Shown here piece by piece: positions 16,820 to 38,905 of a stretch of DNA of 54,800 bases. A program made the position numbers and the translations under genes. The notes below the pieces were generated by a model that searched no databases, was not told the origin of the DNA, and was given only the letters and a program-made list of their open reading frames with translations. Origin of the DNA: a virus. Lineage: Duplodnaviria; Caudoviricetes. How positions within the stretch are numbered: position 1 is the stretch's first letter; the number at the start of each line of letters is the position of its first letter. The stretch covers positions 1-54,800 of IMG/VR virus record IMGVR_UViG_3300043410_001533, one strand, 5' to 3'.

Positions 16820-17075
16820 TTGTTCCATAATGATGGAACGGTGATGGAACGCACTATTGCCTCACAAGCCCCGTCCGACGCGGGTTTCGAGACACACAGC
16901 CCGTGTACCATTGTTCCATCATATACCCATATATATTAAACCATGTCGTTGACAGGGCATTACCCCCGCGTGCGTGTGTAACAATGGTACACGAGGTCTT
17001 TTTTCGAATGGGAGAGGCGTTCCATCTGGCGTTCCATCTTTATGGAACGGTGGAACGTTGCTTTTTGTTCCACCA
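16820..17075. repeat. Iteron/hairpin element A (inverted copy of 38645-38905)
   Basis: About 11 GTTCCA(T/C)/ATGGAAC/GTACCAT heptamers; the reverse complement of 16911-17056 aligns with 38667-38810; non-coding. Confidence 0.85.
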
Positions 17076-17123
17076 GCGTCGGGAGGTCCGACACGAGTAC
17101 AGCGCATTGCACGCCGTAGACGA

Positions 17124-17153
17124 ATTAAACCACGAATTCTCGCAGTGCCGCAA
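17124..17153 (-). promoter_or_regulatory. Putative promoter firing into element A
   Basis: TTGCGG-N18-TTTAAT, sharing GTGGTTTAATTCG with 16644-16656. Confidence 0.4.
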
Positions 17154-17571
17154 GTACGTCCTCGGTGCCACAGCCTCGTTTGTCGAGTCGTACGCTGTAT
17201 TTACGCCACATCGCTTGGGTCCAGTCGCTGGTCGCCAGCTCTGCCGCGTTGAACACGAAGACCTCGTCGCCGACTTGGACCACGAGCCAAGTGTTGCCGC
17301 CGTTGATCTGGTGCCGAATCGCCCAGTAGCGTTGGCCGTTGGTCCAGTGTGGGAGCTTGATGGTCGTGGTGGCTTTCACCGGGAAGGCATCGAGGCATTT
17401 CAGTTCGATCCAGCCGGTGAGCGGGCGATTGTCGGTGGCGGGCGAGGCCTTTGTGCTGAAGTACAGGTCCGGAGTGTCTTTTTTCACCCGGTTCTCGACA
17501 CGTTCCAGCAGGGCGACGTGGCCCACCTTGCGGACCAGCCAGTCGTAGAGCTTCTGCTCAGGCAGTCGCAC
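17125..17571 (-). CDS. PD-(D/E)XK nuclease, Holliday-junction resolvase / VRR-NUC-like
   Basis: E..LY..L, ERVEN....TPDLY, GWIELK, Q..W; GG.TWLVVQV. Confidence 0.8.
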   Translation of the reverse strand: MRLPEQKLYDWLVRKVGHVALLERVENRVKKDTPDLYFSTKASPATDNRPLTGWIELKCLDAFPVKATTTIKLPHWTNGQRYWAIRHQINGGNTWLVVQVGDEVFVFNAAELATSDWTQAMWRKYSVRLDKRGCGTEDVLAALREFVV

Positions 17572-17671
17572 CGGATCTCCGCATCTGGCTCCGATACCTC
17601 TCCGAGGCCTTCCTTGGGGTCTTCCTTGCGTCAGAAGATATAGTACCGGTATGGTAATAGCTTGGCATATC

Positions 17672-17884
17672 TCAAGCGTCTCCGGAGGGCTTCCGTAAGT
17701 TCCTGACGAATACCGCGAAAGAGGCGGCGGTGTCGCCCAGCGGAGTCATCGCGGCGATCTTGAAGGCGGCGTCGTCGAGTGCTTGCTGGTAGGCAATCTC
17801 GTACACATCCGCGATCAGCGTTTGGAGTTGGGGCAGGTCCGGGAACGCCCGGTCAGCCATTTCGAGTATCGTCGTCTTGGTCAT
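17672..17884 (-). CDS. Hypothetical protein
   Basis: 70-aa ORF in the minus-strand gene run; GDTAASFAVFVR. Confidence 0.55.
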   Translation of the reverse strand: MTKTTILEMADRAFPDLPQLQTLIADVYEIAYQQALDDAAFKIAAMTPLGDTAASFAVFVRNLRKPSGDA

Positions 17885-17978: not shown

Positions 17979-17993
17979 GGGGCCGATTGTACC

Positions 17994-18437: not shown

Positions 18438-18713
18438 TTACTGGTTTACGGCTTCGGAGATCTCGTCGGCGGCCGTGTCGATCTCTTCGATCGCGGACTC
18501 GAGCGAATCATTGGCCGACTCGAATGCTTGGGCGATCTCTTCGATGCGCTGGCCGTTGTCGGACGCTTGGAGGCCTTCGGGCATGTTGTCGAAGCAGTCC
18601 TGCTCTTCGGTCGCGAGGTCCTTCAGGTTATCGAGGGCGAAGCGGAGATTTTCGAGCGCGGTACGGACGGCGATCAGTTCGGCTTCTACTTTGGCGCGGC
18701 GTTGCTTGTTCAT
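18438..18713 (-). CDS. Coiled-coil early protein (91 aa)
   Basis: Start MNKQRRAK after the ATAGAGGACA leader; EEQDCFDNMPEGLQAS..G motif. Confidence 0.7.
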   Translation of the reverse strand: MNKQRRAKVEAELIAVRTALENLRFALDNLKDLATEEQDCFDNMPEGLQASDNGQRIEEIAQAFESANDSLESAIEEIDTAADEISEAVNQ

Positions 18714-18749
18714 GGTGTTGTCCTCTATCTGTTGGTGTGAAAAGACTCT

Positions 18750-18779
18750 ATTATAACACAGGTGCCATACCTTTGTCAA
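18750..18779 (-). promoter_or_regulatory. Sigma70-type early promoter
   Basis: TTGACA-N18-TATAAT with GCACCTGTGT spacer motif. Confidence 0.8.
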
Positions 18780-18898
18780 TACCCCAGTCGCCGTTGGGTG
18801 AACGACACCCAGCATCGGGCACACAGCCACCGGCCGGGGCGGGTTTCGACTCCGCCGCCAGCCAGTCGCTCGACTTTGCATTTTGCACAGGTCTGCAT
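18776..18898 (-). CDS. Small zinc-finger protein (40 aa), not in the track
   Basis: Manual translation MQTCAKCKVERLAGGGVETRPGRWLCARCWVSFTQRRLGY, two CxxC pairs; starts 3 nt after the previous stop. Confidence 0.5.
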   Translation of the reverse strand: MQTCAKCKVERLAGGGVETRPGRWLCARCWVSFTQRRLGY

Positions 18899-18901
18899 CA
18901 G

Positions 18902-19117
18902 TCAGCCCCGGAGGTTGTCGTCGATCCAGCGGTCCAAGGCGCGGAAGGCGAGCCAGCGATCGATTTGCTGGCCATCCTTCGTCGAATCGAACCACGCGTC
19001 CACCTTGGGGCCGTCGATTTCGGCGCGGAAGGCGATGCGCTGGCCGTCCAGTAGCATTTCACCCGTGAGGGTGGCCGAGTGCAAGCGCACCCGGACTTCT
19101 TTTTTGGTATTAGGCAT
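18902..19117 (-). CDS. Hypothetical protein
   Basis: 71 aa, coupled to the upstream gene, AAGGA SD. Confidence 0.6.
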   Translation of the reverse strand: MPNTKKEVRVRLHSATLTGEMLLDGQRIAFRAEIDGPKVDAWFDSTKDGQQIDRWLAFRALDRWIDDNLRG

Positions 19118-19604
19118 TTGCGGTTTCCTTCAGTGCTTTGCGGATCATGTTGCCGAGGTTCATGCGTTGCATGCCGGGGTTCAGGTGGGCGAAACGGTCG
19201 CGGAGGCCAGCTTGGGAGATCCCGGTGGCCTTGGACGCTTGGGCGTACACGCCGTCGAGGGTCAGCTTGCGCAAGCCCACTGCCACGGCGTCGCCCTTGT
19301 CGATCGAACGCTTCTTCGTGCCGTCGGCCAACTGGGTGGTGTACGCGGTGTACTGGGGCAGGTAAAGGGGATCTACTTTGCCGTTTTTGCGCTCGTTGAT
19401 GTCCATCTTGGCGCGGGCGGAGGCCTTGGCCTTTTCGATCACGAGCTGGGCAGTCGTGGGAGCGGTGATTGCAGTGTGGCCGGAGAGTGCGCCGTTGCGG
19501 ACCTTAGAAGTCTCGCCATCGACGGAGATCGTGGTCCAGCCGCCGTTCACGGCGACGATTTCAACTTGCTGGCCTGTGGCGGTGATGATTGCTACGTTTG
19601 TCAT
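19110..19604 (-). CDS. Early protein: SH3-like N-terminus plus helical C-terminal domain
   Basis: VEIVAVNGGWTTISVDG; C-terminal SIDKGDAVA..LR...FAHLNPGMQRMNLGNMIR; ATAGAGGACA leader. Confidence 0.7.
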   Translation of the reverse strand: MTNVAIITATGQQVEIVAVNGGWTTISVDGETSKVRNGALSGHTAITAPTTAQLVIEKAKASARAKMDINERKNGKVDPLYLPQYTAYTTQLADGTKKRSIDKGDAVAVGLRKLTLDGVYAQASKATGISQAGLRDRFAHLNPGMQRMNLGNMIRKALKETANA

Positions 19605-19671
19605 GGTGTGTGTCCTCTATAAGATTATCGGGTTGTGGGTCTCTGTATCTTTTTATCGATCCAGAAACTGA

Positions 19672-19701
19672 ATTATAACACGGGTGCAATGGGTTTGTCA
19701 A
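19672..19701 (-). promoter_or_regulatory. Sigma70-type early promoter
   Basis: TTGACA-N18-TATAAT with GCACCCGTGT. Confidence 0.8.
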
Positions 19702-19735
19702 GTACCCCCCTCAAACGACCCTACTGCGAATAGGG

Positions 19736-20008
19736 TCATTCGGCCTTTCCCGAGGGATCGTAAATCGTGTCCACGTACTCTTGCACGCCCTCGGTCCACT
19801 CGGCACCGGGCCAATAGACCACGTAGCCTTTGCCCATCTGGTCCACAGTCGCGCCAGCCTTTGGCAGTCCGTCCATGTCGGAGCCGTGGTCCACGACACA
19901 GGCGACGCAGTCCTGCCCATACATGAAGCGGCCCGAGTAGGGGATGGGTTTTAGGTCCCGATTGGCGATCGCGTCGATCAGGTCCATGGTGGTGTTCAGA
20001 ATCATCAT
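19736..20008 (-). CDS. Hypothetical phage protein (90 aa)
   Basis: Start MMILNTT with AGGAG SD; YSGRFMYG..CV...DQMGKG.VVYWP motif. Confidence 0.65.
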   Translation of the reverse strand: MMILNTTMDLIDAIANRDLKPIPYSGRFMYGQDCVACVVDHGSDMDGLPKAGATVDQMGKGYVVYWPGAEWTEGVQEYVDTIYDPSGKAE

Positions 20009-20226
20009 ACGTAGGCTCCTTTTCTCTTCAGCATCATTTGGCGGTCGCGGATGGCGTCGATTTCGCACCACAGCTTCCGATCGTATTCGGCGTCGCTGTT
20101 CGGGCCGACGGCGAGCATCGCGTCGTAGCAGTCGCGCAGAGCGCGGTCGCACATGTGGGCGTCGTACTCAGCGAATTTGCGACGGAAAACCGCCGCGAGG
20201 TCAGTGTAGGAGATCGTACGGTTCAT
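20005..20226 (-). CDS. Hypothetical protein (73 aa)
   Basis: Start MNRTISY with GGAGG SD; TAATG coupling; KLWCEIDAIRDR. Confidence 0.6.
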   Translation of the reverse strand: MNRTISYTDLAAVFRRKFAEYDAHMCDRALRDCYDAMLAVGPNSDAEYDRKLWCEIDAIRDRQMMLKRKGAYV

Positions 20227-20480
20227 TATTTCACCTCCGCATTGCCGGACATTTCGCCGTCCATGATGTCGAACAGCACGGCCTTCGCACGATTGAGCAT
20301 TTGGCGGGCGGCCTCGGTCTGCCCCATGGCCATCAGCTCCTGCGCGTCGGACATCAGGCCCGCGACGACCATGTTGCCGCCGGTGTAGCGGTAGGTGATC
20401 GACTCGCGAATGGAGGCCTTGAACTTCTCGATGTCGCAACCGTACATTGACTGCTCGTTGCTGGTGATTGATGTCTGCAT
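20226..20480 (-). CDS. Hypothetical early protein
   Basis: 84 aa after a promoter and the ATAGAGGACA leader; GLMSDAQELMAMG..E.ARQ.LNRAK. Confidence 0.7.
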   Translation of the reverse strand: MQTSITSNEQSMYGCDIEKFKASIRESITYRYTGGNMVVAGLMSDAQELMAMGQTEAARQMLNRAKAVLFDIMDGEMSGNAEVK

Positions 20481-20514
20481 TGTGTTGTCCTCTATGTGTT
20501 GTTAAAAAGGTTAT

Positions 20515-20544
20515 ATTATAACACAGGTGCTACAATCCTGTCAA
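20515..20544 (-). promoter_or_regulatory. Sigma70-type early promoter
   Basis: TTGACA-N18-TATAAT with GCACCTGTGT. Confidence 0.8.
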
Positions 20545-21253
20545 GTATTCCATGAAGCGAGTCCACGCCACCATTGCAGAAATGGAGCTTCGGGGCCTTT
20601 CGGTATTTGTCCTGCACGGCGTGATTGATGAACTTCGTCATTAGGACCGTGTGCGCACGGGTGAGCTTGTCGTAGGTGACGGCTTGCTCCGGCGTGAAAA
20701 AGCTCAGGTCCAAGCGATCGTGGTATTTGTTCGCTACCGCGTGAGCTTGGGCGGGTAGTAGTCCGATTACCAGCACGCCGGGACGGGCGTAGCCAGTGGG
20801 GTGCGGAATCGGCTGGGGGTTGTGCTTCGGACGATTGACCACGATCTGCGGGGCGTTCTCCAGCATTTGCGTCGACATTTTATCTGCAACCCGGGCGGCC
20901 ACGGACTCGGCGACAACGTCCAGCAGTAGCTCGAGTATATCCGCGAGCCTCGTCTTGGGGGTCTCCTTGCGTTCGGGCGCGGGGGTCGGGGCTAGTATAG
21001 GGGCAGGGGCTTCGACGGCCTTCGGAGGCGTCTTCTTCGACTCCTGCTGAGCCTTTTGCCGGGCGACTTCGATACGGTCTTTGTAGTTGAACACGCGCTG
21101 GTCGGTGACCTTGATCCAGCGGCTGGCATTGAGCACAGTCTGTGCTTCGCGCAATGCCTCTTTGCGGGTAAGATTCGGGCGTTGGCGAAAGACTTGCTCC
21201 ATACGGGCGAAGATCGCGCCTTTTTCTATGTGTGACCAGACGATTCGAGCCAT
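20516..21253 (-). CDS. Hypothetical protein with C-terminal DUF2325-like alpha/beta domain
   Basis: Start MARIVWS after ATAGAGGA; C-terminal VLVIGL...VLMTKFINH...FCNGGVDSL. Confidence 0.65.
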   Translation of the reverse strand: MARIVWSHIEKGAIFARMEQVFRQRPNLTRKEALREAQTVLNASRWIKVTDQRVFNYKDRIEVARQKAQQESKKTPPKAVEAPAPILAPTPAPERKETPKTRLADILELLLDVVAESVAARVADKMSTQMLENAPQIVVNRPKHNPQPIPHPTGYARPGVLVIGLLPAQAHAVANKYHDRLDLSFFTPEQAVTYDKLTRAHTVLMTKFINHAVQDKYRKAPKLHFCNGGVDSLHGILDRIVAPVL

Positions 21254-21271
21254 GATTTCCTCTATGTGTTT

Positions 21272-21297
21272 AAAAAGCGGGGGCCGAAGCCCCCTTG
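21272..21297 (-). terminator. Rho-independent terminator
   Basis: GGGGGC-TTCG-GCCCCC followed by GCTTTTT on the minus strand. Confidence 0.75.
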
Positions 21298-21326
21298 AAA
21301 ATGGCAACTGCAGAAGCCATACCCCC

Positions 21327-21354
21327 ATTATACCAGCGCGAGAGCCTGTGTCAA
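21327..21354 (-). promoter_or_regulatory. Sigma70-type promoter overlapping the DUF932 gene stop
   Basis: TTGACA-N16-TATAAT with TG extension. Confidence 0.6.
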
Positions 21355-22308
21355 TGCATCGCGTTTCAGGCGGGCACCGGCACCGAACCAAGCGGACTGG
21401 AGACGGGTGTCGCGCGATGCGGCTTTGCGCTCGTGATCGGCGAAGCGGGTGACGGCGTTCAGCAGTCCCCACGCGGTGCCCTGTGCAGTCTTGGCTCGCT
21501 GGCCCACGCCGTCGAGGTAGATCTTAGTCACCAGCTCGATCATCGGACGCTTGGCTTCGACGTCGATCGACTCGGCCTCGTCGCCGTAGAACACGTCGAG
21601 GAAGTAGCGGGTCGCCTCTTCTTTCGACACTTTGCGCTTGGACAGCGTGGTCGCGTTCGTCTTGAACTGGCTCCAAGTGTCCGCACACAAGCCCAACTCG
21701 GCCTTGAACTTCTCGGCGTTGAATCGGGTGCTGTGTGGCACGCGGATTTGGCCGGTCTTGTTCGCTACGGCCAGCGACAGCGTATTGTTGCACACGACAC
21801 GGGTGGTCGTGAACTGCGCAGTGTTCGACATTGAGCCGTCGCAAGACGTCGCCAGCAGTAGGTAGGGCAGGACCACGTCACCGCCGCCCACGTCGAACGA
21901 ATCCTCGGCCTTGGCCAATGCCCAGTAGGTGGAGCCGTTGCGCAGGACGCCAGCAGTCTCCATCTTGAAGTCGCCGCCTTCGGTCAGGTCGCGAAAGAAC
22001 TCCATCACGGCGCGGGGTTGGGTGATAAAGTAATTGCTCGACATGACGGACAGGGGTTCGCCGGTATCGGAGCGGTACAGTGCCCAGCGTGCGGGTACGG
22101 TCTGCATACGGACCGGATTGTCCTCCTCGTCGCGCACCTCGTAGGCGATCGCGCCCTTTTTGACCTCCCAGTCGAGGCCCGCTTCGCGAGTCCAGACGTC
22201 GAGGGGGGCGTCGGGGGTGAGCTTCTGTCCGAGTCCGTGCCAAGGGGTCTCGCCCGCGTATGCCATTGATGCTTTGCCAGCCGCATTGAAGTTAAGTTCG
22301 TGTGCCAT
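21328..22308 (-). CDS. DUF932-family protein
   Basis: MAYAGETPWHGLG, AGLDWEV, YRSDTG.PLSV.S..Y...QP, METAG.LR.G..WALA, YLLLATSCDGS, RVVCNNTL, GTAWGLLNAVT. Confidence 0.88.
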   Translation of the reverse strand: MAHELNFNAAGKASMAYAGETPWHGLGQKLTPDAPLDVWTREAGLDWEVKKGAIAYEVRDEEDNPVRMQTVPARWALYRSDTGEPLSVMSSNYFITQPRAVMEFFRDLTEGGDFKMETAGVLRNGSTYWALAKAEDSFDVGGGDVVLPYLLLATSCDGSMSNTAQFTTTRVVCNNTLSLAVANKTGQIRVPHSTRFNAEKFKAELGLCADTWSQFKTNATTLSKRKVSKEEATRYFLDVFYGDEAESIDVEAKRPMIELVTKIYLDGVGQRAKTAQGTAWGLLNAVTRFADHERKAASRDTRLQSAWFGAGARLKRDALTQALALV

Positions 22309-22344
22309 GATGTCTAGTGTCCTCTATGTGTTGATGAAGAATGA

Positions 22345-22373
22345 ATTATACCACAGGTGCTACAATCTGTCAA
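22345..22373 (-). promoter_or_regulatory. Sigma70-type early promoter
   Basis: TTGACA-N17-TATAAT with GCACCTGTGG. Confidence 0.85.
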
Positions 22374-22380
22374 GTATCGT

Positions 22381-22563
22381 CTAATCACCGAGTACTTCCC
22401 AAGTGTCGCCTTTGTGACCACACTCGTCGCACTGGTAGCCGTACTTGGCCCAAAAGATCTCGTGTCGAGGGTCCGATTTGGACTCCAAGAGCTTGACGCC
22501 CATACCCGCGTTGCAGATCGGGCAGGTATCTAGGCCCTCGTCCTCGACTTCGTCGTCATGCAT
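22381..22563 (-). CDS. Small zinc-ribbon protein
   Basis: CPIC...YQCDECG; AGGAG SD. Confidence 0.65.
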   Translation of the reverse strand: MHDDEVEDEGLDTCPICNAGMGVKLLESKSDPRHEIFWAKYGYQCDECGHKGDTWEVLGD

Positions 22564-22774
22564 AGTGTACTCCTACGATTAACGCCGCAAGCAGTGCGAC
22601 ACTGAGGGTCCAAAGGACCGCATCCCAAAAGACCTCGGCCGCTGGGCGGTACGTTGGCTCGAGTAGCGAGAGCTGGAGCCTTTCCATGTCCGCGCTTGGC
22701 TCCCACGTCTGCCGGGGCTGGTACATGCACCCGATTTGAATGCCGGTCTTGGTGGTGTAAGGGGTGATCTTCAT
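22556..22774 (-). CDS. Small membrane protein (72 aa)
   Basis: Start MKITPYTTKTGIQIG (ATGA overlap); C-terminal TM helix. Confidence 0.65.
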   Translation of the reverse strand: MKITPYTTKTGIQIGCMYQPRQTWEPSADMERLQLSLLEPTYRPAAEVFWDAVLWTLSVALLAALIVGVHYA

Positions 22775-23067
22775 TTTACGATCTCCATTTGGCGGATGTT
22801 CATCACCTCGACTTCGCCGGTGTGCTCCTCGACCCACTCGGCCGACAGGTGTGCGCGGACGGCGTCCATGTCCAGCTGTGGGCGGGTCGTGAACTTGATC
22901 TCGATCTGGTGCTGGTCGCCACGGTAGATCGCGTTGCCGCCCTTGCGGAAGATCTCTTTCAGGTACTTCTCGCGGGCAGTCAGTGCCTTGAGCTGGTCAC
23001 GCACGCTGGCGAGTTCGTCCACCATGTCAGTGGTGATTGCGACGGGCTTAGTGGTAGTCTTTGCCAT
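22771..23067 (-). CDS. Hypothetical early protein (98 aa)
   Basis: Start MAKTTTK after ATAGAGGACA; VDELASVRDQLKAL coiled coil. Confidence 0.7.
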   Translation of the reverse strand: MAKTTTKPVAITTDMVDELASVRDQLKALTAREKYLKEIFRKGGNAIYRGDQHQIEIKFTTRPQLDMDAVRAHLSAEWVEEHTGEVEVMNIRQMEIVK

Positions 23068-23136
23068 GATTGTGTGTCCTCTATAATGTCTATCGGTTGA
23101 GTGGTTACTGGATCGTCTTACCAACCCAGAATCTGT

Positions 23137-23166
23137 ATTATAACACAGGTGGGGTAGCCTTGTCAA
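23137..23166 (-). promoter_or_regulatory. Sigma70-type early promoter
   Basis: TTGACA-N18-TATAAT with CCACCTGTGT. Confidence 0.8.
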
Positions 23167-23443
23167 TACCCCCCTTCGGTATTCGTGTCGCCACGATGGT
23201 CGCATACCCCGCGATGTCCACCCATGAGTCGAGGTGGTTGGGGTCGCCGTTCAAAATGCGGGAGGCCTTGCACGCGATCATGTCGAGCGATTCACGCTGG
23301 TGGTACTCCAGCCGTTCCCAGCCGGGGCACTCGCGAAAGAGATCCTTCAGGGTCTGTGCGATCTCGGCTTGAATCGTGTAGTCGCCGTACGACTCGCCAC
23401 GCTCCGCGACCACCCCGTCTATGTTAAGAGATGACTGCGGCAT
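23138..23443 (-). CDS. DUF6378-like protein
   Basis: ERGESYGDY...ESLDMIACKASRILNGDP..DSWVDIAGYA. Confidence 0.75.
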   Translation of the reverse strand: MPQSSLNIDGVVAERGESYGDYTIQAEIAQTLKDLFRECPGWERLEYHQRESLDMIACKASRILNGDPNHLDSWVDIAGYATIVATRIPKGGIDKATPPVL

Positions 23444-24692
23444 GAGCGAGTCCTCCTTTTTTATATCGGCTCTTGTACGAGCCGGGAGGAGCTTCTTTCA
23501 CCAGACGCTCCACGATGTCTTCGGGGTCGTAGCCTTTAAGCATTCCGCGAATCAGAGCTTCGGTCGTGGCCTGTCGTCCAAGCGTCGTGGGGCCGAATGC
23601 CCCTGCTAGGTCCTGTGGGTTCGCCATAACTTGAGGCTCGGCGAGATTCTTCAGCAAGACGTCCTCGTAGGGGCGCACTTGGCTGATTCGCAGTGGCGAC
23701 GCCGTACCGGTGCCGGGGCCGTAGGCTCCCGCCATTTGCGCTTCGCGCGTCATCAGTGTGCCGATCGTTTCGTCAGGTGTCATGTTCAGGAAATTCGGGG
23801 TGCGCAAATCCTGCGCCGCGTCCATCAGTTCGTCGGTCTTCTTATTCGTTACTAGATTCGGACCACCGAATAACTTCTTCAGGTAGTAGTCTTCCTTGTG
23901 GCTGGCTTGAACAGGCATCGAGAAAAGCTGGCCGGACATCCCGGGCGAGTACGCCACCTCTTCGACTGGGGCGATATATCCGAGGTTCCCGTGTCCGAGC
24001 GAATGGGACGCCACATTGCCGAGTCGCCGCACTTGGTTTACATCCGTCAAATGCGACGCGAAGTTACCATGCCCCTGTGCACGCATCATGTCGTACGCCA
24101 GTGCGTACAGCTCTTTGCCTTTCGCGGGCAGACTCTTCCACCACGCGGAATCGGGGTCCTTCAGACCGTACGTTCCGGGCTTGACGTCCATGGCGTAGAG
24201 TTCAGTCATCGTCGGGTGAGGCATATCCATACCGAACTGTGCCCGAGCCGCATTCCACTGGGGATCGCGCATCGCCGCTTCAGCCATGTAACGCTCCAGC
24301 TCGAAACCGAGCGGGGTCTTGTCTTTGTCAAGCCTTGAGGGTGACCACGTGATGTTCGGATGAATACCCCGTGCATGTGCCTCGTCTATGTCCTTAGGTG
24401 CTTTACTCTCGGGGTCGAGTCGGATTTTGCCGGTAGAGGGCATATAGCCACGCTGTACCGCGCCTTCGTTCGTCGAGGACATCGTCGCACGAATCGGCTC
24501 GCCACTGGCGGTCTTGCCAAACATCCCGGCCTTGTTGTACTGCTCGAGCACTTCAGCGGGGAGCATGCCCGCCTGTGCTTGACGCATACCCAGCGGGACG
24601 CGCTGTGCGCCGGGGAGAGTGGCAATGGCGCGGTGGCCCCTGCCTACTCCCTCCATTAGGTCAGCGAACGATAGGTTCTTTACTGGTGGCAT
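23424..24692 (-). CDS. Paralog B: putative GNAT-like protein with C-terminal YKKGG tag
   Basis: Collinear similarity to 24997..26244 (PGAQ, SGEP.RA, ESK.PK, LY.L.YDM.RA, LT.VN..RRL.NV.SH..GHG, REAQ.AGAYGP, AFGP.TLGR); GNAT call is inference. Confidence 0.6.
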   Translation of the reverse strand: MPPVKNLSFADLMEGVGRGHRAIATLPGAQRVPLGMRQAQAGMLPAEVLEQYNKAGMFGKTASGEPIRATMSSTNEGAVQRGYMPSTGKIRLDPESKAPKDIDEAHARGIHPNITWSPSRLDKDKTPLGFELERYMAEAAMRDPQWNAARAQFGMDMPHPTMTELYAMDVKPGTYGLKDPDSAWWKSLPAKGKELYALAYDMMRAQGHGNFASHLTDVNQVRRLGNVASHSLGHGNLGYIAPVEEVAYSPGMSGQLFSMPVQASHKEDYYLKKLFGGPNLVTNKKTDELMDAAQDLRTPNFLNMTPDETIGTLMTREAQMAGAYGPGTGTASPLRISQVRPYEDVLLKNLAEPQVMANPQDLAGAFGPTTLGRQATTEALIRGMLKGYDPEDIVERLVKEAPPGSYKSRYKKGGLAHAAVIS

Positions 24693-24934
24693 TCTATCCC
24701 CTCAAGGTGATCATATGCGTCGCGGAATTCGTCGACTACGTAGTCGTAAGAATCGGAGGCGTTCTCACGCACCATCTCTTCCCACTCTAAGTTGTGGTCG
24801 CAGTATTCCGACTGGTCTTCGCACATTTCGGCCCGACGCAGTCCGGCGTAGGTCGCATCGTCAATACCCAATGCGGCAAGCGCGGCGCGAGCGCGGGTGA
24901 GCAATTCGCGAGATTCGGGTTTCATCGTAATCAT
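24680..24934 (-). CDS. Hypothetical acidic protein
   Basis: 84 aa after a promoter and the ATAGAGGAC leader. Confidence 0.65.
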   Translation of the reverse strand: MITMKPESRELLTRARAALAALGIDDATYAGLRRAEMCEDQSEYCDHNLEWEEMVRENASDSYDYVVDEFRDAYDHLEGIECHQ

Positions 24935-24978
24935 GGTAGTAGTCCTCTATAGTCTATGTGTGGTGGAAGGGAAGTCAT

Positions 24979-25007
24979 ATTATAACACACGTGGGACTAG
25001 GCGTCAA
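24979..25007 (-). promoter_or_regulatory. Sigma70-type promoter
   Basis: TTGACG-N17-TATAAT with CCACGTGTGT. Confidence 0.75.
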
Positions 25008-26244
25008 GTGCGGTGGCCAGCCCGCCTTTTGCGTATCGACCCTTAATCGCTTCCAGCGGCACACCCTTGAACAGTTCATACGAGATCTCTTCGGGTGTCT
25101 GCCCACGGAGCATTCGCGCCACGGTCTCCTCAGTGGTGAGTGCTCGTCCAAGAGTGTTGGGTCCAAATGCGCGTAAAATGCTGTCTCTACCCTGCTCACT
25201 GGCTTTTTTCACCGTCGGCACAGACAAAGCCCGGAGGTCTTTCATGTCGAAAGGCCCAAGTCCTTGAGTCGGTGGTCCATAAGCCCCCGCAAGTTGTGCC
25301 TCGCGCAAAAGCATATAGCCCGCCATCTCGTCATCGGTGAGACCAGCAAATGCCCGAGGTCCCATTCCTTGGAGCTTCGTGCCGAACTTCGAAGGCAACA
25401 AATCGCGAAGGTAACTGTCTTCAAGATTTATGTCATCGACCGGCGACTTAAAAGATTGAGAGGACCACGGGGTCAATCCCCGGACTTTTTCTTCGTTCAA
25501 CGGCGAAATCGTGCCGAAGTCACCATGGCCGAAATAATGTGACAACACATTCCGAAGTCGGCGCGGGTGATTCACTTCAGTCAGTGTTCCTGCGGTTACG
25601 CCAAATTCACCACGAGGTGCACGCGACATATCGTACCCAAGCTGGTAGAGGTTAGTACCGGGGGATTTAAATCCTTTCCACCCGGGGCCACTGCCGCCTG
25701 CATCCATCGCGTTAATTTGGAACATTTGAGCGGATTTGGAACCAATACCGGTCTCACGCCCAGCCCGCACGTCGGCCTTATACTTTTCGAAGTTACGAGC
25801 ATCAATCGGACCGAGCATATTTTCAATCCGATTGAATAATGGGCCGGTCCGGTTGTAATCGTACGTGTCGTAGTCGTAGTCTTTCTTAAAGCGCATGGTC
25901 GGATTGCCATCGCCTTCCCGGTATGCTTTGGGCGTCTTGCTTTCCCCATGTAGAACTATATCGAATTTATCATTCGTATTTTCTTGGATCGGCACATTCT
26001 TACTTACCGGGCCGTCAACGTGGGGACTCATGACTGATGCCCGCACAGGTTCGCCGCTCGGCAATGTGCCAAATATCCCCTTGTCGCTCGCGATCTTGGC
26101 CATTTCGCCGTGCGTCTTGCCGCGCAAAAGATCTCGAATTTCGAACGCTTGAGCACCGGGTTTGGCCGCCGCCGCTTTGTGGACGTCGGCCAGCCCCGTA
26201 AGCAGGTCTTTAAACGTCAGTCCCTTCGGTATGGGCGGAGCCAT
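24997..26244 (-). CDS. Paralog A: putative GNAT-like protein with C-terminal YAKGG tag
   Basis: Start MAPPIPK (GAGG SD) lies inside the end of the HDAC gene; aligns with paralog B from its N-terminus; GNAT call is inference. Confidence 0.6.
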   Translation of the reverse strand: MAPPIPKGLTFKDLLTGLADVHKAAAAKPGAQAFEIRDLLRGKTHGEMAKIASDKGIFGTLPSGEPVRASVMSPHVDGPVSKNVPIQENTNDKFDIVLHGESKTPKAYREGDGNPTMRFKKDYDYDTYDYNRTGPLFNRIENMLGPIDARNFEKYKADVRAGRETGIGSKSAQMFQINAMDAGGSGPGWKGFKSPGTNLYQLGYDMSRAPRGEFGVTAGTLTEVNHPRRLRNVLSHYFGHGDFGTISPLNEEKVRGLTPWSSQSFKSPVDDINLEDSYLRDLLPSKFGTKLQGMGPRAFAGLTDDEMAGYMLLREAQLAGAYGPPTQGLGPFDMKDLRALSVPTVKKASEQGRDSILRAFGPNTLGRALTTEETVARMLRGQTPEEISYELFKGVPLEAIKGRYAKGGLATALDA

Positions 26245-27079: not shown

Positions 27080-27090
27080 GGTAATGTCCT

Positions 27091-29774: not shown

Positions 29775-29779
29775 TACCT

Positions 29780-31615: not shown

Positions 31616-31878
31616 CAGAATGGGATGTCGTCGAATTCAACGCCGGAATCACTCGCTGGTCGGCCAGATGCCGCAGTTCCGCCCTCTTTGCGATTGATCT
31701 TGATGGAGAAGTATTTCTTGCCTTCCATCTTGCCACCGGCCTTGCCTTCATTAACCCACGCGGAAAGCCAGTAGTCCACGCCCTCTACGTTGATCGAGCC
31801 AGTGAATTCCGGATGCTTGTCCGTCTTGCGATTCTCAGCGCGAGCCATAATGCCCGAATTGGTGTTATCGTATGCCAT
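31615..31878 (-). CDS. Small SSB-like protein (DUF736-like)
   Basis: K.DKHPEFTGSINVEG..YWLSAW...KYFSIKI and an acidic DDIPF tail. Confidence 0.75.
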   Translation of the reverse strand: MAYDNTNSGIMARAENRKTDKHPEFTGSINVEGVDYWLSAWVNEGKAGGKMEGKKYFSIKINRKEGGTAASGRPASDSGVEFDDIPF

Positions 31879-31915
31879 CTTGAATGTCCTCTATCTGTTG
31901 GTTACTGAAGTGGCT

Positions 31916-31944
31916 ATTATACCACCCGCGATACTGTCTGTCAA
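31916..31944 (-). promoter_or_regulatory. Sigma70-type promoter driving the SSB-dpoZ-purZ-mazZ-datZ operon
   Basis: TTGACA-N17-TATAAT; ATAGAGGACA leader at 31885-31894. Confidence 0.8.
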
Positions 31945-31947
31945 TTA

Positions 31948-35315: not shown

Positions 35316-37037
35316 GTTACGATCGTTTCGGTCGTTAATGCTCGTCCGCACGAACTCGCTCACGTCCTTTTTCTCTCGCAACGCCTGAGTGACGGCCGCG
35401 TCCACGGTGCCCTCGGCGATGATGTCAATGTAGGTCACGCTTCGCGTCTGCCCGATCCTGTGCGCACGGTCCTCGGACTGCTCGCGATCGGTGAAAGAGA
35501 ACGAGTTCGAGTAGTACACCACCAACTCCGCACGGGTCATGTTCAGACCCACACCTCCGGTGGCCGCGTTGCCTACGAGGAATCGCGCCTTACCAGTTTG
35601 GAACAGGTTCTGCACGTTGTGGTCGCGATCGTTTTCGCTGATGCCGCCGTGAATCTCCACCACGGAGTCGTGGCCGTACTTCTCGCGCAAAGCCTCACAC
35701 ACCATGCGGATTTCCTCGATGAATCGACACCAGACGATCGTGCTGGCGTCGTTCTCCTCGGCTATAGCGAGTAGCTCCTCGACTTTTGGGTTCTTTCCTG
35801 CAATGCGATTGTGCGAGAACTTCGACGCGTCGTAGAGGTCGGGGTTGCGCTCGAAGGTGATGATACCACCGGCGATCTCTTGGAGCCGGAGCATTCGCTC
35901 GAGCACTGTCTTGACGGTGATTCCTTGATCTCCAGATACCGTCTTGTCACGTTTAGCAATGTCTTTATATAGTCGTTTTTGTTCATCAGTTAGCTGGACC
36001 TCGCGGGTCTGGTACACTTTTGGTGGTAATTCCGTCAGCACTTCGGACTTGCGCACTTGATAGATGAACGGCGAGATCAGCTCGATAAGCTCTTCCATAT
36101 TCTGGTAGCCCACCACTTGCCGATCCTCGTATCCGCCCATAATCGCGTACCGATTGCGGAAAGAGTAGAAATCCCCGATTCCGATAATGTTCGGGTCGAG
36201 GAACTCGAATTGCATGAAGATGTCCATCGGGCCATTCGCCACTGGCGTGCCCGTCATGATCACCTTGTAATTCGCGGATTTGCCCAGCTTGACACAGTTC
36301 TTACTGCGCACGGCCGAGTGATTCTTGATCATATGTGCTTCGTCCACGATCATTCCGACGCGGGTACTGCAGTCCACGAACTTTTGCGCGAGACCCACCG
36401 CACCACCGGCCGCGAGTGACTCGGTGCCGACGATCAGGAATTTCAGGCGGCCATCGGTCGTGGTGTTCCACGTGTCGAACGCCTTGGGCTTTCCAGTGTC
36501 GAGAATAAACGTGTCGCACTCCATCGGGCAGTGGATGAGCACCTCGCGCTCCCAGTTCTTGCGCGTGCTGAACTTAGTGACGATTAGCACCCGGTCCACC
36601 TTGGCGTCCATGAAGTAGGCGGAGAAGAGATCGAGCGAAGTCTTGGTCTTTCCTGTACCCATGTCCATGTAGAACGCGAAGGTGCTCTTGTTCCACGCAT
36701 GGTCGAGGCCCTTGAGCTGGTACGGCCGTGGCGTGGTCTTGAAAGAGTATACGGGCGGGAATGCCGCTATTTGGTTCGTGCGTACGCGCTCGATAGTCGT
36801 AGTTGCAACCGTGCGAGCATCGTCTGTAAATGTGTCAGCATCAAAATTACCCAGCAGGAACTCGCTATTAGCGCGTAAAGCAGGAGCTGTCCACACGCGG
36901 CGACGAGAATCCCAACGCCGATTAGGTATCCGGCGAATCTTGTCCACCATCCACGGCGGCGAGTGGATGATGAATCGGCTGGTCTTTGCATCGTAAGCGA
37001 TCTGCACTTTAGAATTCTGATCGGAACTTGGGTTCAT
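35295..37037 (-). CDS. SNF2-family helicase
   Basis: PRPYQ, DMGTGKT, VDEAH.IKN, MTGTP, GGVGLNMT.A, QSEDRAHRIGQ. Confidence 0.92.
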   Translation of the reverse strand: MNPSSDQNSKVQIAYDAKTSRFIIHSPPWMVDKIRRIPNRRWDSRRRVWTAPALRANSEFLLGNFDADTFTDDARTVATTTIERVRTNQIAAFPPVYSFKTTPRPYQLKGLDHAWNKSTFAFYMDMGTGKTKTSLDLFSAYFMDAKVDRVLIVTKFSTRKNWEREVLIHCPMECDTFILDTGKPKAFDTWNTTTDGRLKFLIVGTESLAAGGAVGLAQKFVDCSTRVGMIVDEAHMIKNHSAVRSKNCVKLGKSANYKVIMTGTPVANGPMDIFMQFEFLDPNIIGIGDFYSFRNRYAIMGGYEDRQVVGYQNMEELIELISPFIYQVRKSEVLTELPPKVYQTREVQLTDEQKRLYKDIAKRDKTVSGDQGITVKTVLERMLRLQEIAGGIITFERNPDLYDASKFSHNRIAGKNPKVEELLAIAEENDASTIVWCRFIEEIRMVCEALREKYGHDSVVEIHGGISENDRDHNVQNLFQTGKARFLVGNAATGGVGLNMTRAELVVYYSNSFSFTDREQSEDRAHRIGQTRSVTYIDIIAEGTVDAAVTQALREKKDVSEFVRTSINDRNDRNLLGTLA

Positions 37038-38571
37038 CGACTTTCACCTCGTGATCTTCAGTTATAGGAGCGTACCAAACGTTGATGGGCTTGCCGCCCG
37101 GAATTCGGAGCTTGTCGTGGTCCGCGCCGCAGTCGCGCCGCAGAGACGTCCACAGGTCCATACCTGTCATGACCTCGGCCTTGTTGCGCTTCAGGAATTC
37201 GGAGAATGCCGTACCTCGGAACACGATGCACCGCACGCCGTTGATGACCTGCACCACCGGAATATTGCGGGTCAGAGCCTTGCGGTCCTCGGTGTTCGTA
37301 CCATCGGAGGTTAAGTCAGCCTTTTGCACGAACTCGTTGAACTTGGCGGCGATGATACCCGAGGCACTGGCCTCTTTCGGCACTTCGATCACCCGCAGGG
37401 TCGGGATGAGCGGGTCGAGGATACGACGTCGCCACGAATCCTGAGTGATCTTGGGGATGTTGATCTTGAGTTGTTCGAAGATCAGCGTGCCCATCGCGGC
37501 GGGGTCACGTAGGATAATAGTCGGGATGTTCGCGATGAGCTTCCCGTTGACGTGGATGCCCCAACGTGGGGGTTCGGACTGGTACTCGATCAGCTCGGTG
37601 AACTGGGGTAGGGAGTCCTGTGCGTCCAGCTCCTTGCTCTCCTCGGTCGAGATCCCGAACTCGCGGGTAACACACACCTTGCGGTCGCAAAGCGACTTAC
37701 ATGGCTCCTCGCTACATTTGTACAGGTAGTCACGGCGAGACGCGGAGCGAATCACCTTCTTGGCCTCGGCGGGGCCGAGCGGCTTGTCGAACATGGTCTG
37801 GTTCAACGCCATCGCATCGTCAAAGAATGTGTCGGGGCGGGCACGCTTGAGGTACACCACCACATTGTACATCGAATCGTTCCGAGAGCCGGATTCGACG
37901 CCTGTGTGAATCATCTTTTGTATGCACGGCGGAGCCTCCAAGTGCTCCCGGTGAGCCATTTCCTGCAACGCCGCCACTGTGACTCGGCGTGACTGGGCGT
38001 ACGAGATGAACAGCTCGAACGACATCTTCTGGCCTTTGTCATCCACCGCGTATCGCACTGTCTTATCTTTGTCGAAGAACGGCAGGTTGATCCAGTTCCC
38101 CAGCGACTTCTCGCCACTGGACGTGGTCAGCGAGTCCTGCTTCGGGAAGATGTCCACGTGGTTTGGGATTTGGAGCATGTCGCGCCACGAATTCAGGAGC
38201 CGGATCACGAGCTTGGCCGGAAGGAATTCCTCGCCGAACAGGTACAGGTGTGCCCCGCCCGACTTGCTCCGGGTGGCCACAAGTGGAAGCCGGTAGTGCT
38301 CGATCTTCTCCACGAGCTTCGGAATGTCGATGTCAGACCCGTCGGACCCTTTGCCGTGGTTGTCCACGTCGATACAGCCGAACAGCACCGTGCCGCCGTC
38401 CGTAATCGGAACTATGCCCAGCCCCATCCGGCCCTCCAAATGGTCGGCGTAATGCTGGAGTGTGACCTCGCTCTTTTCGGTCACCATCTTGCCTGTCGCG
38501 GGATCCCACTGCCCAAAGGACCGAAGGTTACCGGCGAACAGATTGGCGTAGTCTTGAACTAGACTAGTCAT
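37009..38571 (-). CDS. AEP primase-polymerase (TOTE-primase-like) with PriCT domain
   Basis: GCIDVD, RSKSGGAHLY, IFPKQ, GNWINLPF; PPCI...GSRND; YKC...PC...CD...C zinc cluster. Confidence 0.85.
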   Translation of the reverse strand: MTSLVQDYANLFAGNLRSFGQWDPATGKMVTEKSEVTLQHYADHLEGRMGLGIVPITDGGTVLFGCIDVDNHGKGSDGSDIDIPKLVEKIEHYRLPLVATRSKSGGAHLYLFGEEFLPAKLVIRLLNSWRDMLQIPNHVDIFPKQDSLTTSSGEKSLGNWINLPFFDKDKTVRYAVDDKGQKMSFELFISYAQSRRVTVAALQEMAHREHLEAPPCIQKMIHTGVESGSRNDSMYNVVVYLKRARPDTFFDDAMALNQTMFDKPLGPAEAKKVIRSASRRDYLYKCSEEPCKSLCDRKVCVTREFGISTEESKELDAQDSLPQFTELIEYQSEPPRWGIHVNGKLIANIPTIILRDPAAMGTLIFEQLKINIPKITQDSWRRRILDPLIPTLRVIEVPKEASASGIIAAKFNEFVQKADLTSDGTNTEDRKALTRNIPVVQVINGVRCIVFRGTAFSEFLKRNKAEVMTGMDLWTSLRRDCGADHDKLRIPGGKPINVWYAPITEDHEVKVDEPKFRSEF

Positions 38572-38598
38572 CGTTTTACCTCTCTATGCGTCTATGTA

Positions 38599-38627
38599 TT
38601 GACACCACTTCTGTGGGCTGGTATAAT
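38599..38627 (+). promoter_or_regulatory. Consensus sigma70 promoter on the plus strand, firing into element B
   Basis: TTGACA(38599-604)-N17-TATAAT(38622-627) with TG extension. Confidence 0.75.
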
Positions 38628-38654
38628 TATAACATCTCGCCATCGGAACATCAA
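38626..38654 (-). promoter_or_regulatory. Promoter for the primase operon, overlapping the plus-strand promoter
   Basis: TTGATG-N17-TATAAT; shares the palindrome TATAATTATA. Confidence 0.65.
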
Positions 38655-38905
38655 TACTCACCGTTTGTTCCACCGTTCCATAGCAATGGAACACATGATG
38701 GAACACCCTCTCCCATTCGACAGACGGCCCCTCTGTACCATCGTACCACGCGCACGCGGGGAATGCTCTGTCAACGACGTGGTTCGAATAGGGGGGTATA
38801 TGATGGAACGGGGGATACAACGGAACACGGCATATCCAAGCCCCGAAGGACGCGGGCTTCGAGACACTGGAGCGTTCCAGACGCCGTACCATCTTAATGG
38901 AACAG
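38645..38905. repeat. Iteron/hairpin element B; candidate replication origin
   Basis: Multiple GTTCCA/TGGAAC/GTACCA units; inverted degenerate copy of 16820-17075; immediately upstream of the primase gene. Confidence 0.85.

What the first reader, a model, noticed from the sequence alone, without database searches (positions are those of the whole stretch)
16820..38905. Two ~250-bp iteron/hairpin elements in inverted orientation bracket the whole early/replication module
Seen: the reverse complement of A (16911-17056: GTTCCACCGTTCCATA..ATGGAAC..GATGGAAC..CCTCTCCCATTCGA..GTACCAT..CGCACGCGGGG..ATGC.CTGTCAACGAC.TGGTT..GGGTATATGATGGAAC) matches B (38667-38810), and 16821-16852 matches 38872-38904. 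GTTCCAT-N4-ATGGAAC stems are conserved while their loops vary. Each copy has a promoter-like sequence firing into it from the same end (17124-17153 minus; 38599-38627 plus), so both would give same-sense RNA. These are the only large non-coding gaps, and B abuts the primase gene. Inference: paired outward-facing replication origins or primase sites, a duplicated structured ncRNA, or sites for module inversion or exchange.
Basis: partly seen in the sequence, partly recalled or inferred. Interest (0 to 1): 0.78.

Follow-up and report, generated by a model that had tools for sequence, protein, structure and literature searches.

The report
Paired iteron arrays flanking phage replication genes
Two related ~240-bp non-coding stretches packed with one short repeated word sit at both ends of this phage's replication genes, recur in related phages, and most likely act as docking sites (probable replication origins) for a phage DNA-binding protein.

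Summary
The repeat is real. 16821-17056 (minus) and 38667-38904 (plus) align at 75% identity (E 1e-32). They fill the two largest non-coding gaps of a complete, one-directional PurZ/DpoZ phage genome. Each is a roughly dyad-symmetric array of 11-12 GTTCCAY/RTGGAAC heptamers around a variable core and a GC hairpin. All 5 complete relatives carry two copies about 21 kb apart at the same junctions. So do cultured relatives and a PurZ-less phage whose primase is 35% identical, each with its own repeat word. Orientation is not conserved across the family: one lineage has the primase-side copy flipped, and two relatives have direct copies. No inverted early module was seen (0 of 6 genomes), and there is no recombinase. 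Structured RNA is poorly supported: no Rfam hit, a weak consensus fold, and uncompensated stem changes. The repeat word changes in both copies of one lineage, which points to a trans-acting protein. The neighbouring AEP primase has a winged-helix-like C-terminus. Best reading (about 0.5): two initiator-binding origin-type regions, like SPP1 oriL/oriR. The plus-strand consensus promoter firing into copy B is conserved. Function is inferred, not shown.

The parts
16821..17056 (-). Element A: ~236-bp iteron array between the last early gene and terS. Its canonical orientation is on the minus (gene-sense) strand.
38667..38904 (+). Element B: ~238-bp iteron array between the end of the tail module and the primase gene. 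Its canonical orientation is on the plus (antisense) strand.
38667..38704 (+). B proximal four-heptamer cluster: GTTCCAC-C-GTTCCAT-N4-ATGGAAC-N5-ATGGAAC (>> <<). It starts 13 bp from the -35 of the primase promoter.
17019..17056 (-). A four-heptamer cluster, the counterpart of 38667-38704. One extra GTTCCAC lies at 17067-17073.
38712..38720 (+). Motif X, CCCATTCGA. It is nearly invariant in the clade. Its counterpart in A is 17004-17012 (TCGAATGGG on plus).
38735..38749 (+). B inner forward heptamer pair (GTACCAT-C-GTACCAC). The counterpart in A is 16976-16990.
38751..38801 (+). B variable core: CGCACGCGGGG (38751-38761), CTGTCAACGAC (38768-38778), G-run plus TATAT (38794-38801).
16910..16974 (-). 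A variable core: CCCCGCGTGCG (16964-16974), GTCGTTGACAG (16945-16955), and an AT-rich stretch from 16910. That stretch is 77% A+T over 30 nt, a level reached by 0.013% of all 30-nt windows in the genome.
38803..38826 (+). B inner reverse heptamer pair (ATGGAAC ... ACGGAAC). The counterpart in A is 16905-16919.
38840..38856 (.). GC hairpin GCCCCG-N5-CGCGGG in B. The counterpart in A is 16868-16884. The stem varies among relatives and some carry an inverted copy of motif X here instead.
   Evidence: (D11)
38874..38903 (+). B distal cluster: GTTCCAG-N5-GTACCAT-N4-ATGGAAC.
16822..16850 (-). A distal cluster: GTTCCAT-N4-ATGGAAC-N4-ATGGAAC on plus. The ATG of the longest terS ORF (16828-16826, minus) lies inside the last heptamer.
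38599..38627 (+). Antisense consensus sigma-70-type promoter (TTGACA-17-TATAAT, TG-extended) firing into element B and away from the primase.
38626..38654 (-). Primase promoter (TTGATG-17-TATAAT, 10/12). Its -10 overlaps the -10 of the antisense promoter, face to face.
38605..38616 (.). Small hairpin (CCAC-TTCT-GTGG) in the antisense promoter's spacer, which is also the primase 5' leader. Relatives keep a hairpin there with other stem sequences.
   Evidence: read by eye
37009..38571 (-). AEP primase-polymerase (520 aa): AEP domain, PriCT-1, Cys cluster, and a C-terminal winged-helix-like domain. It is the candidate iteron binder (inference).
15980..16828 (-). Small terminase subunit, the first late gene, immediately downstream of A.
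17125..17571 (-). Last early gene (148 aa, phrog_2165), immediately upstream of A.
17078..17092 (.). Hairpin GTCGGGAGGTCCGAC between the last early gene and A. It has no T-run. The stem differs in relatives.
38973..38995 (-). Terminator-like hairpin after the last late gene (39015-41069), upstream of B in the gene sense.

Best explanation
Each element is a DNA-level platform, an array of 11-12 copies of one 7-8 bp word (GTTCCAY / RTGGAAC) laid out with rough dyad symmetry around a variable core. A phage-encoded sequence-specific protein would bind and oligomerise on it. The two platforms mark the two junctions between the replication (early) module and the structural (late) module. They most likely work as a pair of origin-type regions bound by one initiator. 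The copy next to the primase gene (B) would be the place where replication starts. The second copy (A) would be a second origin, a cis enhancer, or a fork barrier that helps the switch to concatemer synthesis, as proposed for SPP1 oriL/oriR. The most likely binder is the neighbouring AEP primase, through its C-terminal winged-helix-like domain. What is shown: the repeat, its anatomy, its conservation as a pair, the lineage-specific change of the word in both copies, and the conserved antisense promoter. What is inferred: protein binding, the binder's identity, and origin activity.
For: (1) Iteron enrichment and layout. 12 of 15 ATGGAAC lie in the two elements. Clusters of 6 or more hexamers per 300 bp occur only at these two loci in each of G000-G005 and PMBT28. 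The heptamer positions are the invariant columns in 39 distinct relatives, while spacers and core vary. (2) The pair is conserved. 5 of 5 complete relatives have two copies 20-21.7 kb apart. SH-Ab 15497 has two inverted elements built of GAGCAACC, holding 9 of that genome's 13 copies. PMBT28, K21lambda1 and Kokobel2 use TGGAAC. A complete 37-kb phage without PurZ, primase 35% identical, has two AAAGTAAC clusters 20.4 kb apart, one beside the primase gene and one at the early/late junction. (3) A trans-acting binder is implied. In the G002 lineage many heptamers read GTTACA/TGTAAC in both copies, and its A and B are 81% alike, more than either is to any orthologue (66-74%). (4) Only seven early proteins are shared by all four phages compared that carry paired arrays: primase, SNF2 helicase, three Pam3 gp32-34-like proteins, UvrD-like helicase and PolA. 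An iteron region lies immediately upstream of the primase gene in every lineage examined. (5) The primase model is confident (pLDDT 95). Its N-terminus matches Prim-Pol (7nqf, E 8e-12) and RepB' (3h20, E 1.6e-4). Residues ~396-512 match winged-helix DNA-binding domains, best an oriT-binding protein 5vfx (Z 7.4), then Cch 5dgk, MCM8 and ORC2 WH domains. Residues 318-397 match a SaPI replication initiator (8tch, Z 6.4). (6) Copy A holds one of the most AT-rich 30-mers of the genome. (7) Precedent: in SPP1, two distant regions of repeats plus an AT-rich DUE are bound by one initiator (PMC6316719, passages read).
Against: There is no direct evidence of origin activity. GC skew shows no consistent switch at either element in 8 genomes. 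Copy B's core is not AT-rich in this genome. There are no DnaA boxes in the elements. The winged-helix matches are middling (Z below 8, a range the tool says is common by chance) and Foldseek found nothing for that domain. Comparing the putative recognition helix with the iteron word across 10 full-length primases gave no clear correlation. The public runs were contigs only, so no depth, ends or strand could be read. The position at both early/late junctions, the promoter overlap, and the terS start inside the last heptamer would fit a transcription-control role equally well.
Confidence: 0.5

Rival explanations
1. Transcription boundary or timing elements. A phage protein bound to the arrays acts as a roadblock or switch at both early/late junctions. 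It would hold back read-through from the strong early promoters into terS and the late genes at A. At B it would set the choice between the primase promoter and the overlapping antisense promoter. Relief would come later, for example by titration as genome copies rise.
For: Both elements sit exactly at module junctions in the window, SH-Ab 15497 and the 37-kb phage. No promoter of 9/12 or better lies between the early operon and terS, so late genes may depend on read-through across A. The terS ATG lies in the last heptamer. The four-heptamer cluster of B starts 13 bp upstream of the primase -35 and about +32 from the antisense start. The antisense promoter is kept at 11-12/12 in 19 of 19 distinct sequences where B is antisense.
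Against: Eleven to twelve sites over 240 bp with a variable, partly AT-rich core is far more than operators usually need. In PMBT28 the second element lies 2 kb upstream of terS with genes in between. No repressor-like HTH or RHH protein was found in the early module. Ordinary hairpins already lie at both junctions. This role does not exclude an origin role.
Confidence: 0.22
2. A duplicated structured non-coding RNA, or an RNA primer or R-loop. It would be made from the antisense promoter at B and from early-operon read-through at A, in the same relative sense.
For: The geometry is right. Both copies would be transcribed from the end with the four-heptamer cluster and motif X. The antisense promoter is conserved and closer to consensus than the primase promoter. 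In the one lineage where B is flipped, the antisense promoter is absent: 2 of 2 sequences, a single lineage. Contigs from an RNA library cover B at depth 35 against 6-27 in neighbouring bins. This is weak, because these are contigs of relatives and DNA carry-over is possible.
Against: Rfam gives 0 matches. RNAalifold on 39 sequences gives -13.7 kcal/mol over 351 columns with a covariation term of -0.64, and pairs only repeat copies with one another. In the left palindrome 5 of 7 pairs never vary, and the other 2 depart only by broken pairs (3 and 9 sequences), with no compensation. The G-run is a C-run in other lineages in the same orientation. No terminator follows on the plus strand within the gap. 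Cultured relatives lack the antisense promoter.
Confidence: 0.08
3. Packaging signals: terS-binding pac or cos regions.
For: Copy A lies directly upstream of terS in the window clade, SH-Ab 15497 and the 37-kb phage. Repeated short sites are typical of terS-binding regions (general knowledge, recalled).
Against: Copy B is about 22 kb from terS and always beside the primase gene. In PMBT28 the second element is 2 kb from terS. Contig ends of six related records fall at six different places, none in an element, which is what circular permutation would give. A second, oppositely oriented packaging site has no obvious use.
Confidence: 0.06
4. Crossover sites for inversion of the early module, or linkers for exchange of modules between phages.
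For: They are inverted repeats that bracket a 21.6-kb module. The orientation of element B itself differs between lineages, so local flips have happened in evolution.
Against: Primase and terS are co-oriented in 6 of 6 genomes and in the cultured relatives. Pfam and PHROGs searches of the roughly 55 ORFs submitted, mostly the early module, found no integrase, invertase or transposase. A and B are only 68-74% alike in 5 of 6 genomes, too diverged for frequent recombination. One assembled contig runs colinear across B from 36081 to 44731. Identity profiles against five relatives show no break at A or B. In PMBT28 and the 37-kb phage the copies are direct.
Confidence: 0.03

Closest known systems
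Bacillus phage SPP1 oriL / oriR with origin-binding protein gp38
   Same: SPP1 has two distant regions of similar organisation (repeats plus an AT-rich DUE) in a one-directionally transcribed siphovirus genome. One lies at the initiator gene and the other in a non-coding segment towards the late genes, and both are bound by one phage initiator. The second is proposed to stall the fork and trigger the theta-to-concatemer switch (PMC6316719, passages read; PMC3485210, abstract in the listing).
   Different: The SPP1 repeats are direct and oriL lies inside gene 38. Here both regions are non-coding, the words occur in both orientations with dyad symmetry, the candidate binder is an AEP primase rather than a gp38-type organiser, there is no DnaB-type helicase or loader, and binding is untested.
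Satellite phage P4 ori / crr with the alpha primase-helicase (recalled from memory; no paper retrieved, one search found none)
   Same: P4 has two cis regions several kb apart that carry the same short octamer iterons and are bound by one multifunctional primase protein through a C-terminal winged-helix domain. The second region works at a distance.
   Different: P4 alpha also carries the helicase, while the window's primase has no helicase domain. The distances differ (about 4.5 kb against 21.6 kb). The membership features could not be tested here.
RSF1010 oriV ssiA / ssiB with primase RepB'
   Same: An AEP-type primase starts synthesis at two inverted-repeat sites (PMC8567376, abstract in the listing). 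The window primase's fold matches RepB' (3h20, E 1.6e-4).
   Different: ssiA and ssiB are 40-nt single-strand hairpins lying side by side within one origin. They are not 240-bp iteron arrays 21 kb apart.
Iteron origins of phage lambda and iteron plasmids; transcription-activated or R-loop origins of T4
   Same: These have arrays of initiator sites next to an unwinding region and next to the initiator gene. In some, a promoter firing into the origin activates it (T4 R-loop origins: PMC3016281, abstract in the listing; lambda recalled).
   Different: They have one origin region per replicon with direct repeats. No R-loop or activation has been shown here.
Invertible segments (Hin/Gin/Cin type)
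   Same: Inverted repeats bracket a DNA segment.
   Different: There is no recombinase gene, no isomers were seen, the segment is 21.6 kb, and the repeats are diverged.

Membership tests
Iteron-type replication origin | Several copies of one short initiator-binding word clustered in a non-coding region | tested here: met
   There are 12 heptamers in A and 11 in B. 12 of 15 ATGGAAC fall in 0.5 kb of 54.8 kb, and 0 of 100 shuffles reach 15.
Iteron-type replication origin | Adjacent A+T-rich unwinding element | tested here: inconclusive
   A holds a 30-mer of 77% A+T, a level reached by 0.013% of genome windows. B's core is not AT-rich and its maximum of 67% lies at the promoters. Relatives vary.
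Iteron-type replication origin | Initiator gene next to the origin | tested here: inconclusive
   An iteron region lies directly upstream of the primase gene in all lineages examined. That the primase is the initiator is inferred from a winged-helix-like C-terminus with Z 7.4 or less.
Iteron-type replication origin | Origin activity (replication starts there) | not testable with these tools
   GC skew was uninformative. The public runs offered contigs only.
SPP1-type dual initiator-binding regions | Two distant regions of like organisation in one genome | tested here: met
SPP1-type dual initiator-binding regions | Both bound by the same phage protein | not testable with these tools
   The only support is indirect: the word changes in both copies of the G002 lineage.
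Structured non-coding RNA | Match to a curated RNA family | tested here: not met
   Rfam 15 at gathering thresholds gives 0 matches in the window.
Structured non-coding RNA | Conserved secondary structure with compensatory changes | tested here: not met
   RNAalifold gives -13.7 kcal/mol with a covariation term of -0.64. The left palindrome has no pair with a change on both sides and two pairs that depart only by broken cells. In the right palindrome the double changes are symmetric half-site changes.
Structured non-coding RNA | Own promoter and terminator | tested here: inconclusive
   Only B has a promoter. No terminator-like site follows on the plus strand in the gap. No promoter of 9/12 or better feeds A.
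Site-specific invertible segment | Recombinase encoded nearby | tested here: not met
   Pfam and PHROGs scans of the roughly 55 ORFs submitted, mostly the early module, found no integrase, invertase or transposase family.
Site-specific invertible segment | Both orientations of the segment occur | tested here: not met
   Primase and terS are co-oriented in 6 of 6 genomes of the clade and in three cultured relatives.
pac / cos packaging site | Genome ends or the packaging start at the site | tested here: inconclusive
   Contig ends of six records lie elsewhere and differ from one another. Virion termini are unknown.

The most novel reading that the evidence does not exclude
The element may be a transcription-gated origin that has to be entered by RNA polymerase from one particular end. 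In this clade the primase-side copy was flipped and acquired a perfect antisense promoter whose -10 overlaps the primase promoter face to face. RNA polymerase's choice at one 30-bp site would then decide between making primase mRNA and firing, or R-loop priming, the origin. The two copies would launch forks outward from the replication module that converge in the late region. If so, phages that replace A by 2-aminoadenine, whose DNA is harder to melt, would open their origins by transcription plus an iteron-bound AEP primase rather than by an AT-rich unwinding element.
Probability: 0.15. Interest if true: 0.75.

Novelty: new variant of a known kind. Interest (0 to 1): 0.52.

Why it matters
How the PurZ/DpoZ (2-aminoadenine) siphoviruses start replication is not described in the papers I could search. 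Searches found no account of these elements, and passages of bioRxiv 10.1101/2025.10.22.683976 mention no origin, inverted repeat or iteron. This analysis defines two short, conserved, testable cis elements, names a candidate binder, and shows that the same pair exists in cultured phages (PMBT28, K21lambda1, SH-Ab 15497). Origin mapping, binding assays and minimal-replicon construction for Z-DNA therefore become direct experiments. It also shows that the paired architecture travels with a large AEP-primase family (2707 representative clusters) rather than with the Z-base pathway.

Tried and rejected
- DNA search of both gaps against 50,697 phage records found nothing. Relatives had to be reached through the primase protein.
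- Rfam gave no hit.
- RNAalifold and pair counts gave no convincing structure.
- GC skew, plain and cumulative, in 8 genomes rotated to a common start showed no consistent extreme at A or B.
- DnaA boxes: none in the elements. The window has 6 one-mismatch matches against 8.8 expected. In the 37-kb relative the count is no higher than the control.
- Public runs: all 24 are kept as contigs. The four I laid gave no depth profile, molecule ends or strand. One contig of the probable source run crosses B colinearly. Loose ends at 38720 look like relatives' copies, not A x B recombinants. The higher depth of RNA-library contigs over B is only a hint.
- ORFs inside the elements (16919-17107 minus; 38584-38892 minus; 38586-38897 plus) have no family. 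Close relatives and run contigs differ there by 1- and 2-nt indels, so they are not coding.
- Recognition-helix versus iteron-word comparison across 10 full-length primases was inconclusive.
- Foldseek on the primase C-terminal domain gave nothing at E 0.001 or better.
- ESM Atlas on the two Pam3 gp33/gp34-like proteins returned only their own families.
- Identity profiles against five relatives showed no module-exchange breakpoints at A or B.
- My early idea that the GC hairpin keeps an absolute strand, based on D11, failed in G001, where A and B hairpins share the element-relative orientation.
- Complex prediction was not used, because it cannot take DNA.


Full report
**What the window is.** The window is a whole IMG/VR virus record of 54,800 bp, classed linear and about 98% complete. 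Almost all real genes lie on the minus strand. Running in the gene sense from 38571 down to 17125 is an early/replication module. It holds an AEP primase, SNF2 helicase, three Pam3 gp32-34-like proteins, a UvrD-like helicase, an SSB-like protein and family-A polymerase. It also holds PurZ, a MazZ-like pyrophosphohydrolase and a DatZ-like HD hydrolase, so this is a 2-aminoadenine ('Z-genome') type phage. From 16828 downwards come terS, terL, portal and head genes. From the window's top end down to 39015 come lysis and tail genes. Freshwater and drinking-water metagenome runs hold it or its relatives.

**The observation.** The two largest non-coding gaps are 16829-17124 (A) and 38572-39014 (B). 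The reverse complement of 16821-17056 aligns with 38667-38904 at 75% identity, E 1.1e-32. ATGGAAC occurs 15 times against 6.8 expected, and 12 of the 15 are in the two elements. With one-letter variants there are 12 heptamers in A and 11 in B. Read in B's plus-strand order, each element runs as follows:
- a four-heptamer cluster (>> <<)
- a short conserved motif, CCCATTCGA
- a forward heptamer pair
- a core (CGCACGCGGGG, CTGTCAACGAC, then a G-run with TATAT)
- a reverse heptamer pair
- a GC hairpin
- a terminal cluster (>> <)

Adjacent direct heptamers have an 8-bp period. The plus-strand promoter firing into B is a perfect TTGACA-17-TATAAT.

**Conservation.**
- Primase relatives were found in 28 IMG/VR loci. 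All 23 loci that hold the gene start at 73-99% identity carry element B just upstream.
- All 5 complete relatives (57.0-58.8 kb) have two copies on opposite strands, 20-21.7 kb apart. Heptamer clusters occur nowhere else in those genomes.
- Across 39 distinct sequences the invariant columns are the heptamers. Spacers, core and hairpin vary.
- Acinetobacter phage SH-Ab 15497 (primase 42% identical) has the same thing at the same two junctions. Its word is different, GAGCAACC in 8-bp tandem, and 9 of that genome's 13 copies lie in the two elements.
- Salmonella phage PMBT28, Klebsiella phage K21lambda1 and Providencia phage Kokobel2 use TGGAAC.
- A complete 37-kb phage with a 35%-identical primase and no PurZ has two AAAGTAAC clusters 20.4 kb apart. 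One lies upstream of the primase gene. The other lies between a methyltransferase gene and the holin/terL/portal genes.
- The pair therefore goes with the primase-centred replication module, not with the Z pathway.

**Orientation.** In the window clade, 6 of 6 complete genomes have B antisense and A gene-sense. But in one lineage of the same clade (L021 and L147, primase 73%) B is flipped. In SH-Ab 15497 the polarity of both copies is the mirror image of the window's, judged by motif order. In PMBT28 and the 37-kb phage the copies are direct. So 'inverted' is not a family constant. Primase and terS are co-oriented in every genome examined, no recombinase was found, and A and B are only 68-74% alike in most genomes. 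Inversion of the module is therefore not supported.

**DNA or RNA?**
- Rfam finds nothing.
- The consensus fold of 39 sequences is weak, at -13.7 kcal/mol with a covariation term of -0.64.
- In the left palindrome 5 of 7 pairs never vary and 2 depart only by broken pairs.
- In the G002 lineage GTTCCA becomes GTTACA in many sites of both copies without compensation in the partner arm. That lineage's A and B are 81% alike, more than either is to any orthologue.
- The G-run of the core is a C-run in other lineages.

These patterns fit recognition of individual half-sites by a trans-acting protein, plus occasional gene conversion, better than they fit an RNA structure. ORFs across the elements have no family and are broken by 1-2-nt indels in near relatives.

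**The promoter.** The antisense promoter is kept at 11-12/12 in 18 of 19 distinct upstream regions and in L132. It is always closer to consensus than the primase promoter (9-10/12), whose -10 it overlaps face to face. In L018 an insertion separates the two promoters and the antisense one is still perfect. It is absent (9/12) in the flipped lineage and in the cultured relatives. The window scans (16000-54800) found nine 12/12 promoters: eight on the gene strand inside the early module, plus this one. Geometrically, both copies are entered by transcription from the same end: B from this promoter, and A by read-through of the early operon. This is the strongest point for a role of transcription or RNA. 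It also feeds the boldest reading, a transcription-gated origin.

**Candidate binder.** Seven early proteins are shared by the four phages with paired arrays that I compared. The primase gene always lies next to an iteron region. Its model (pLDDT 95) has a Prim-Pol N-terminus (7nqf, E 8e-12; RepB' 3h20, E 1.6e-4). Its C-terminal half gives mostly winged-helix DNA-binding matches, some from initiators and origin or oriT binders: 5vfx Z 7.4, 8tch Z 6.4, 5dgk Z 6.0, and the MCM8 and ORC2 WH domains. These Z values are in the range the tool calls common, so this is a lead, not proof. The recognition-helix comparison was inconclusive.

**Mechanism and comparison.** The best-supported reading is a pair of origin-type initiator-binding regions, confidence about 0.5. 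The closest documented case is SPP1. Its oriL and oriR have similar repeats plus an AT-rich DUE, both are bound by gp38, oriL starts theta replication, and gp38 at oriR is proposed to stall the fork and trigger concatemer synthesis (PMC6316719, passages read; PMC3485210, abstract in the listing). P4 ori/crr with the alpha primase is a second analogue, recalled and not retrieved. Evidence against: no skew signal, no AT-rich core in B, no DnaA boxes, and no experimental data. A transcription-boundary role (0.22) fits the junction positions, the promoter overlap and the terS start inside a heptamer, and it could coexist with an origin role. Packaging (0.06), structured RNA (0.08) and inversion or exchange (0.03) are less likely.

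**Novelty.** Four searches aimed at Z-genome phages and the repeat word and one paper's passages gave no description of these elements. Two further searches were for the SPP1 and P4 analogues. Supplements were closed and subscription journals were not covered. I rate it a new variant of a known kind: iteron origin regions, in a dual arrangement. It matters mainly because it gives Z-genome phages and a very large AEP-primase phage family (2707 representative clusters) concrete, testable origin candidates that are present in cultured phages.

Noticed in passing
window 27330-31615 (minus): There is a complete 2-aminoadenine gene set. It comprises a DatZ-like HD hydrolase (27330-27893), a MazZ-like pyrophosphohydrolase (28178-28768), PurZ (28647-29855) and a family-A polymerase with 3'-5' exonuclease (29780-31615). 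Runs labelled freshwater or drinking water hold the phage or its relatives.
   Followed up: partly
window 18750-31944 (minus): Eight perfect 12/12 sigma-70-type promoters with a TG-extended -10 sit in the early module. They share flanks (repeat families D2-D6, for example CACCTGTGTTATAAT) and a common leader with CATAGAGGA before the start codons. A Z-substituted genome may need consensus promoters, but this is unexplained.
   Followed up: partly
window 44483-45107: A long tandem array with a 6/12/18-nt period (GTTAGT-like units, 27 register copies) lies inside the 1524-aa late gene 43669-48243. Local GC skew there is +0.24.
   Followed up: no
window 26210-27366 (minus): The early module encodes a histone-deacetylase-family protein (26210-27079), an NrdR-like zinc-ribbon protein (27091-27366) and a DUF932 protein (21328-22308). 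These are unusual passengers of unknown role.
   Followed up: no
window 16826-16828: The ATG of the longest terS ORF is the ATG of the last ATGGAAC heptamer, and no Shine-Dalgarno sequence precedes it. Distant terS homologues align only from residue 49-76, so the true start is uncertain.
   Followed up: partly
window 18822-18849: A third copy (79% identical) of the hairpin block seen in A and B (repeat family D11) lies inside or near the ORF 18438-18995.
   Followed up: no
L028 3001-5207: In this 41%-identical relative the primase match spans 2207 nt for 520 residues, and straight translation stops after 203 aa. The gene seems interrupted, possibly by an intron, intein or other insertion.
   Followed up: no
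G001, G002, G005 PurZ matches: the genome search reports 1-2 in-frame stops (TAG or TGA) inside the PurZ matches of three relatives. This may only reflect match ends running past the gene. I did not examine it.
   Followed up: no
window 38605-38616 and relatives: A small hairpin at the 5' end of the primase leader changes its stem sequence between lineages (CCCAC/GTGG, CCCGC/GCGG, CACCGG/CCGGTG) while staying a hairpin.
   Followed up: partly
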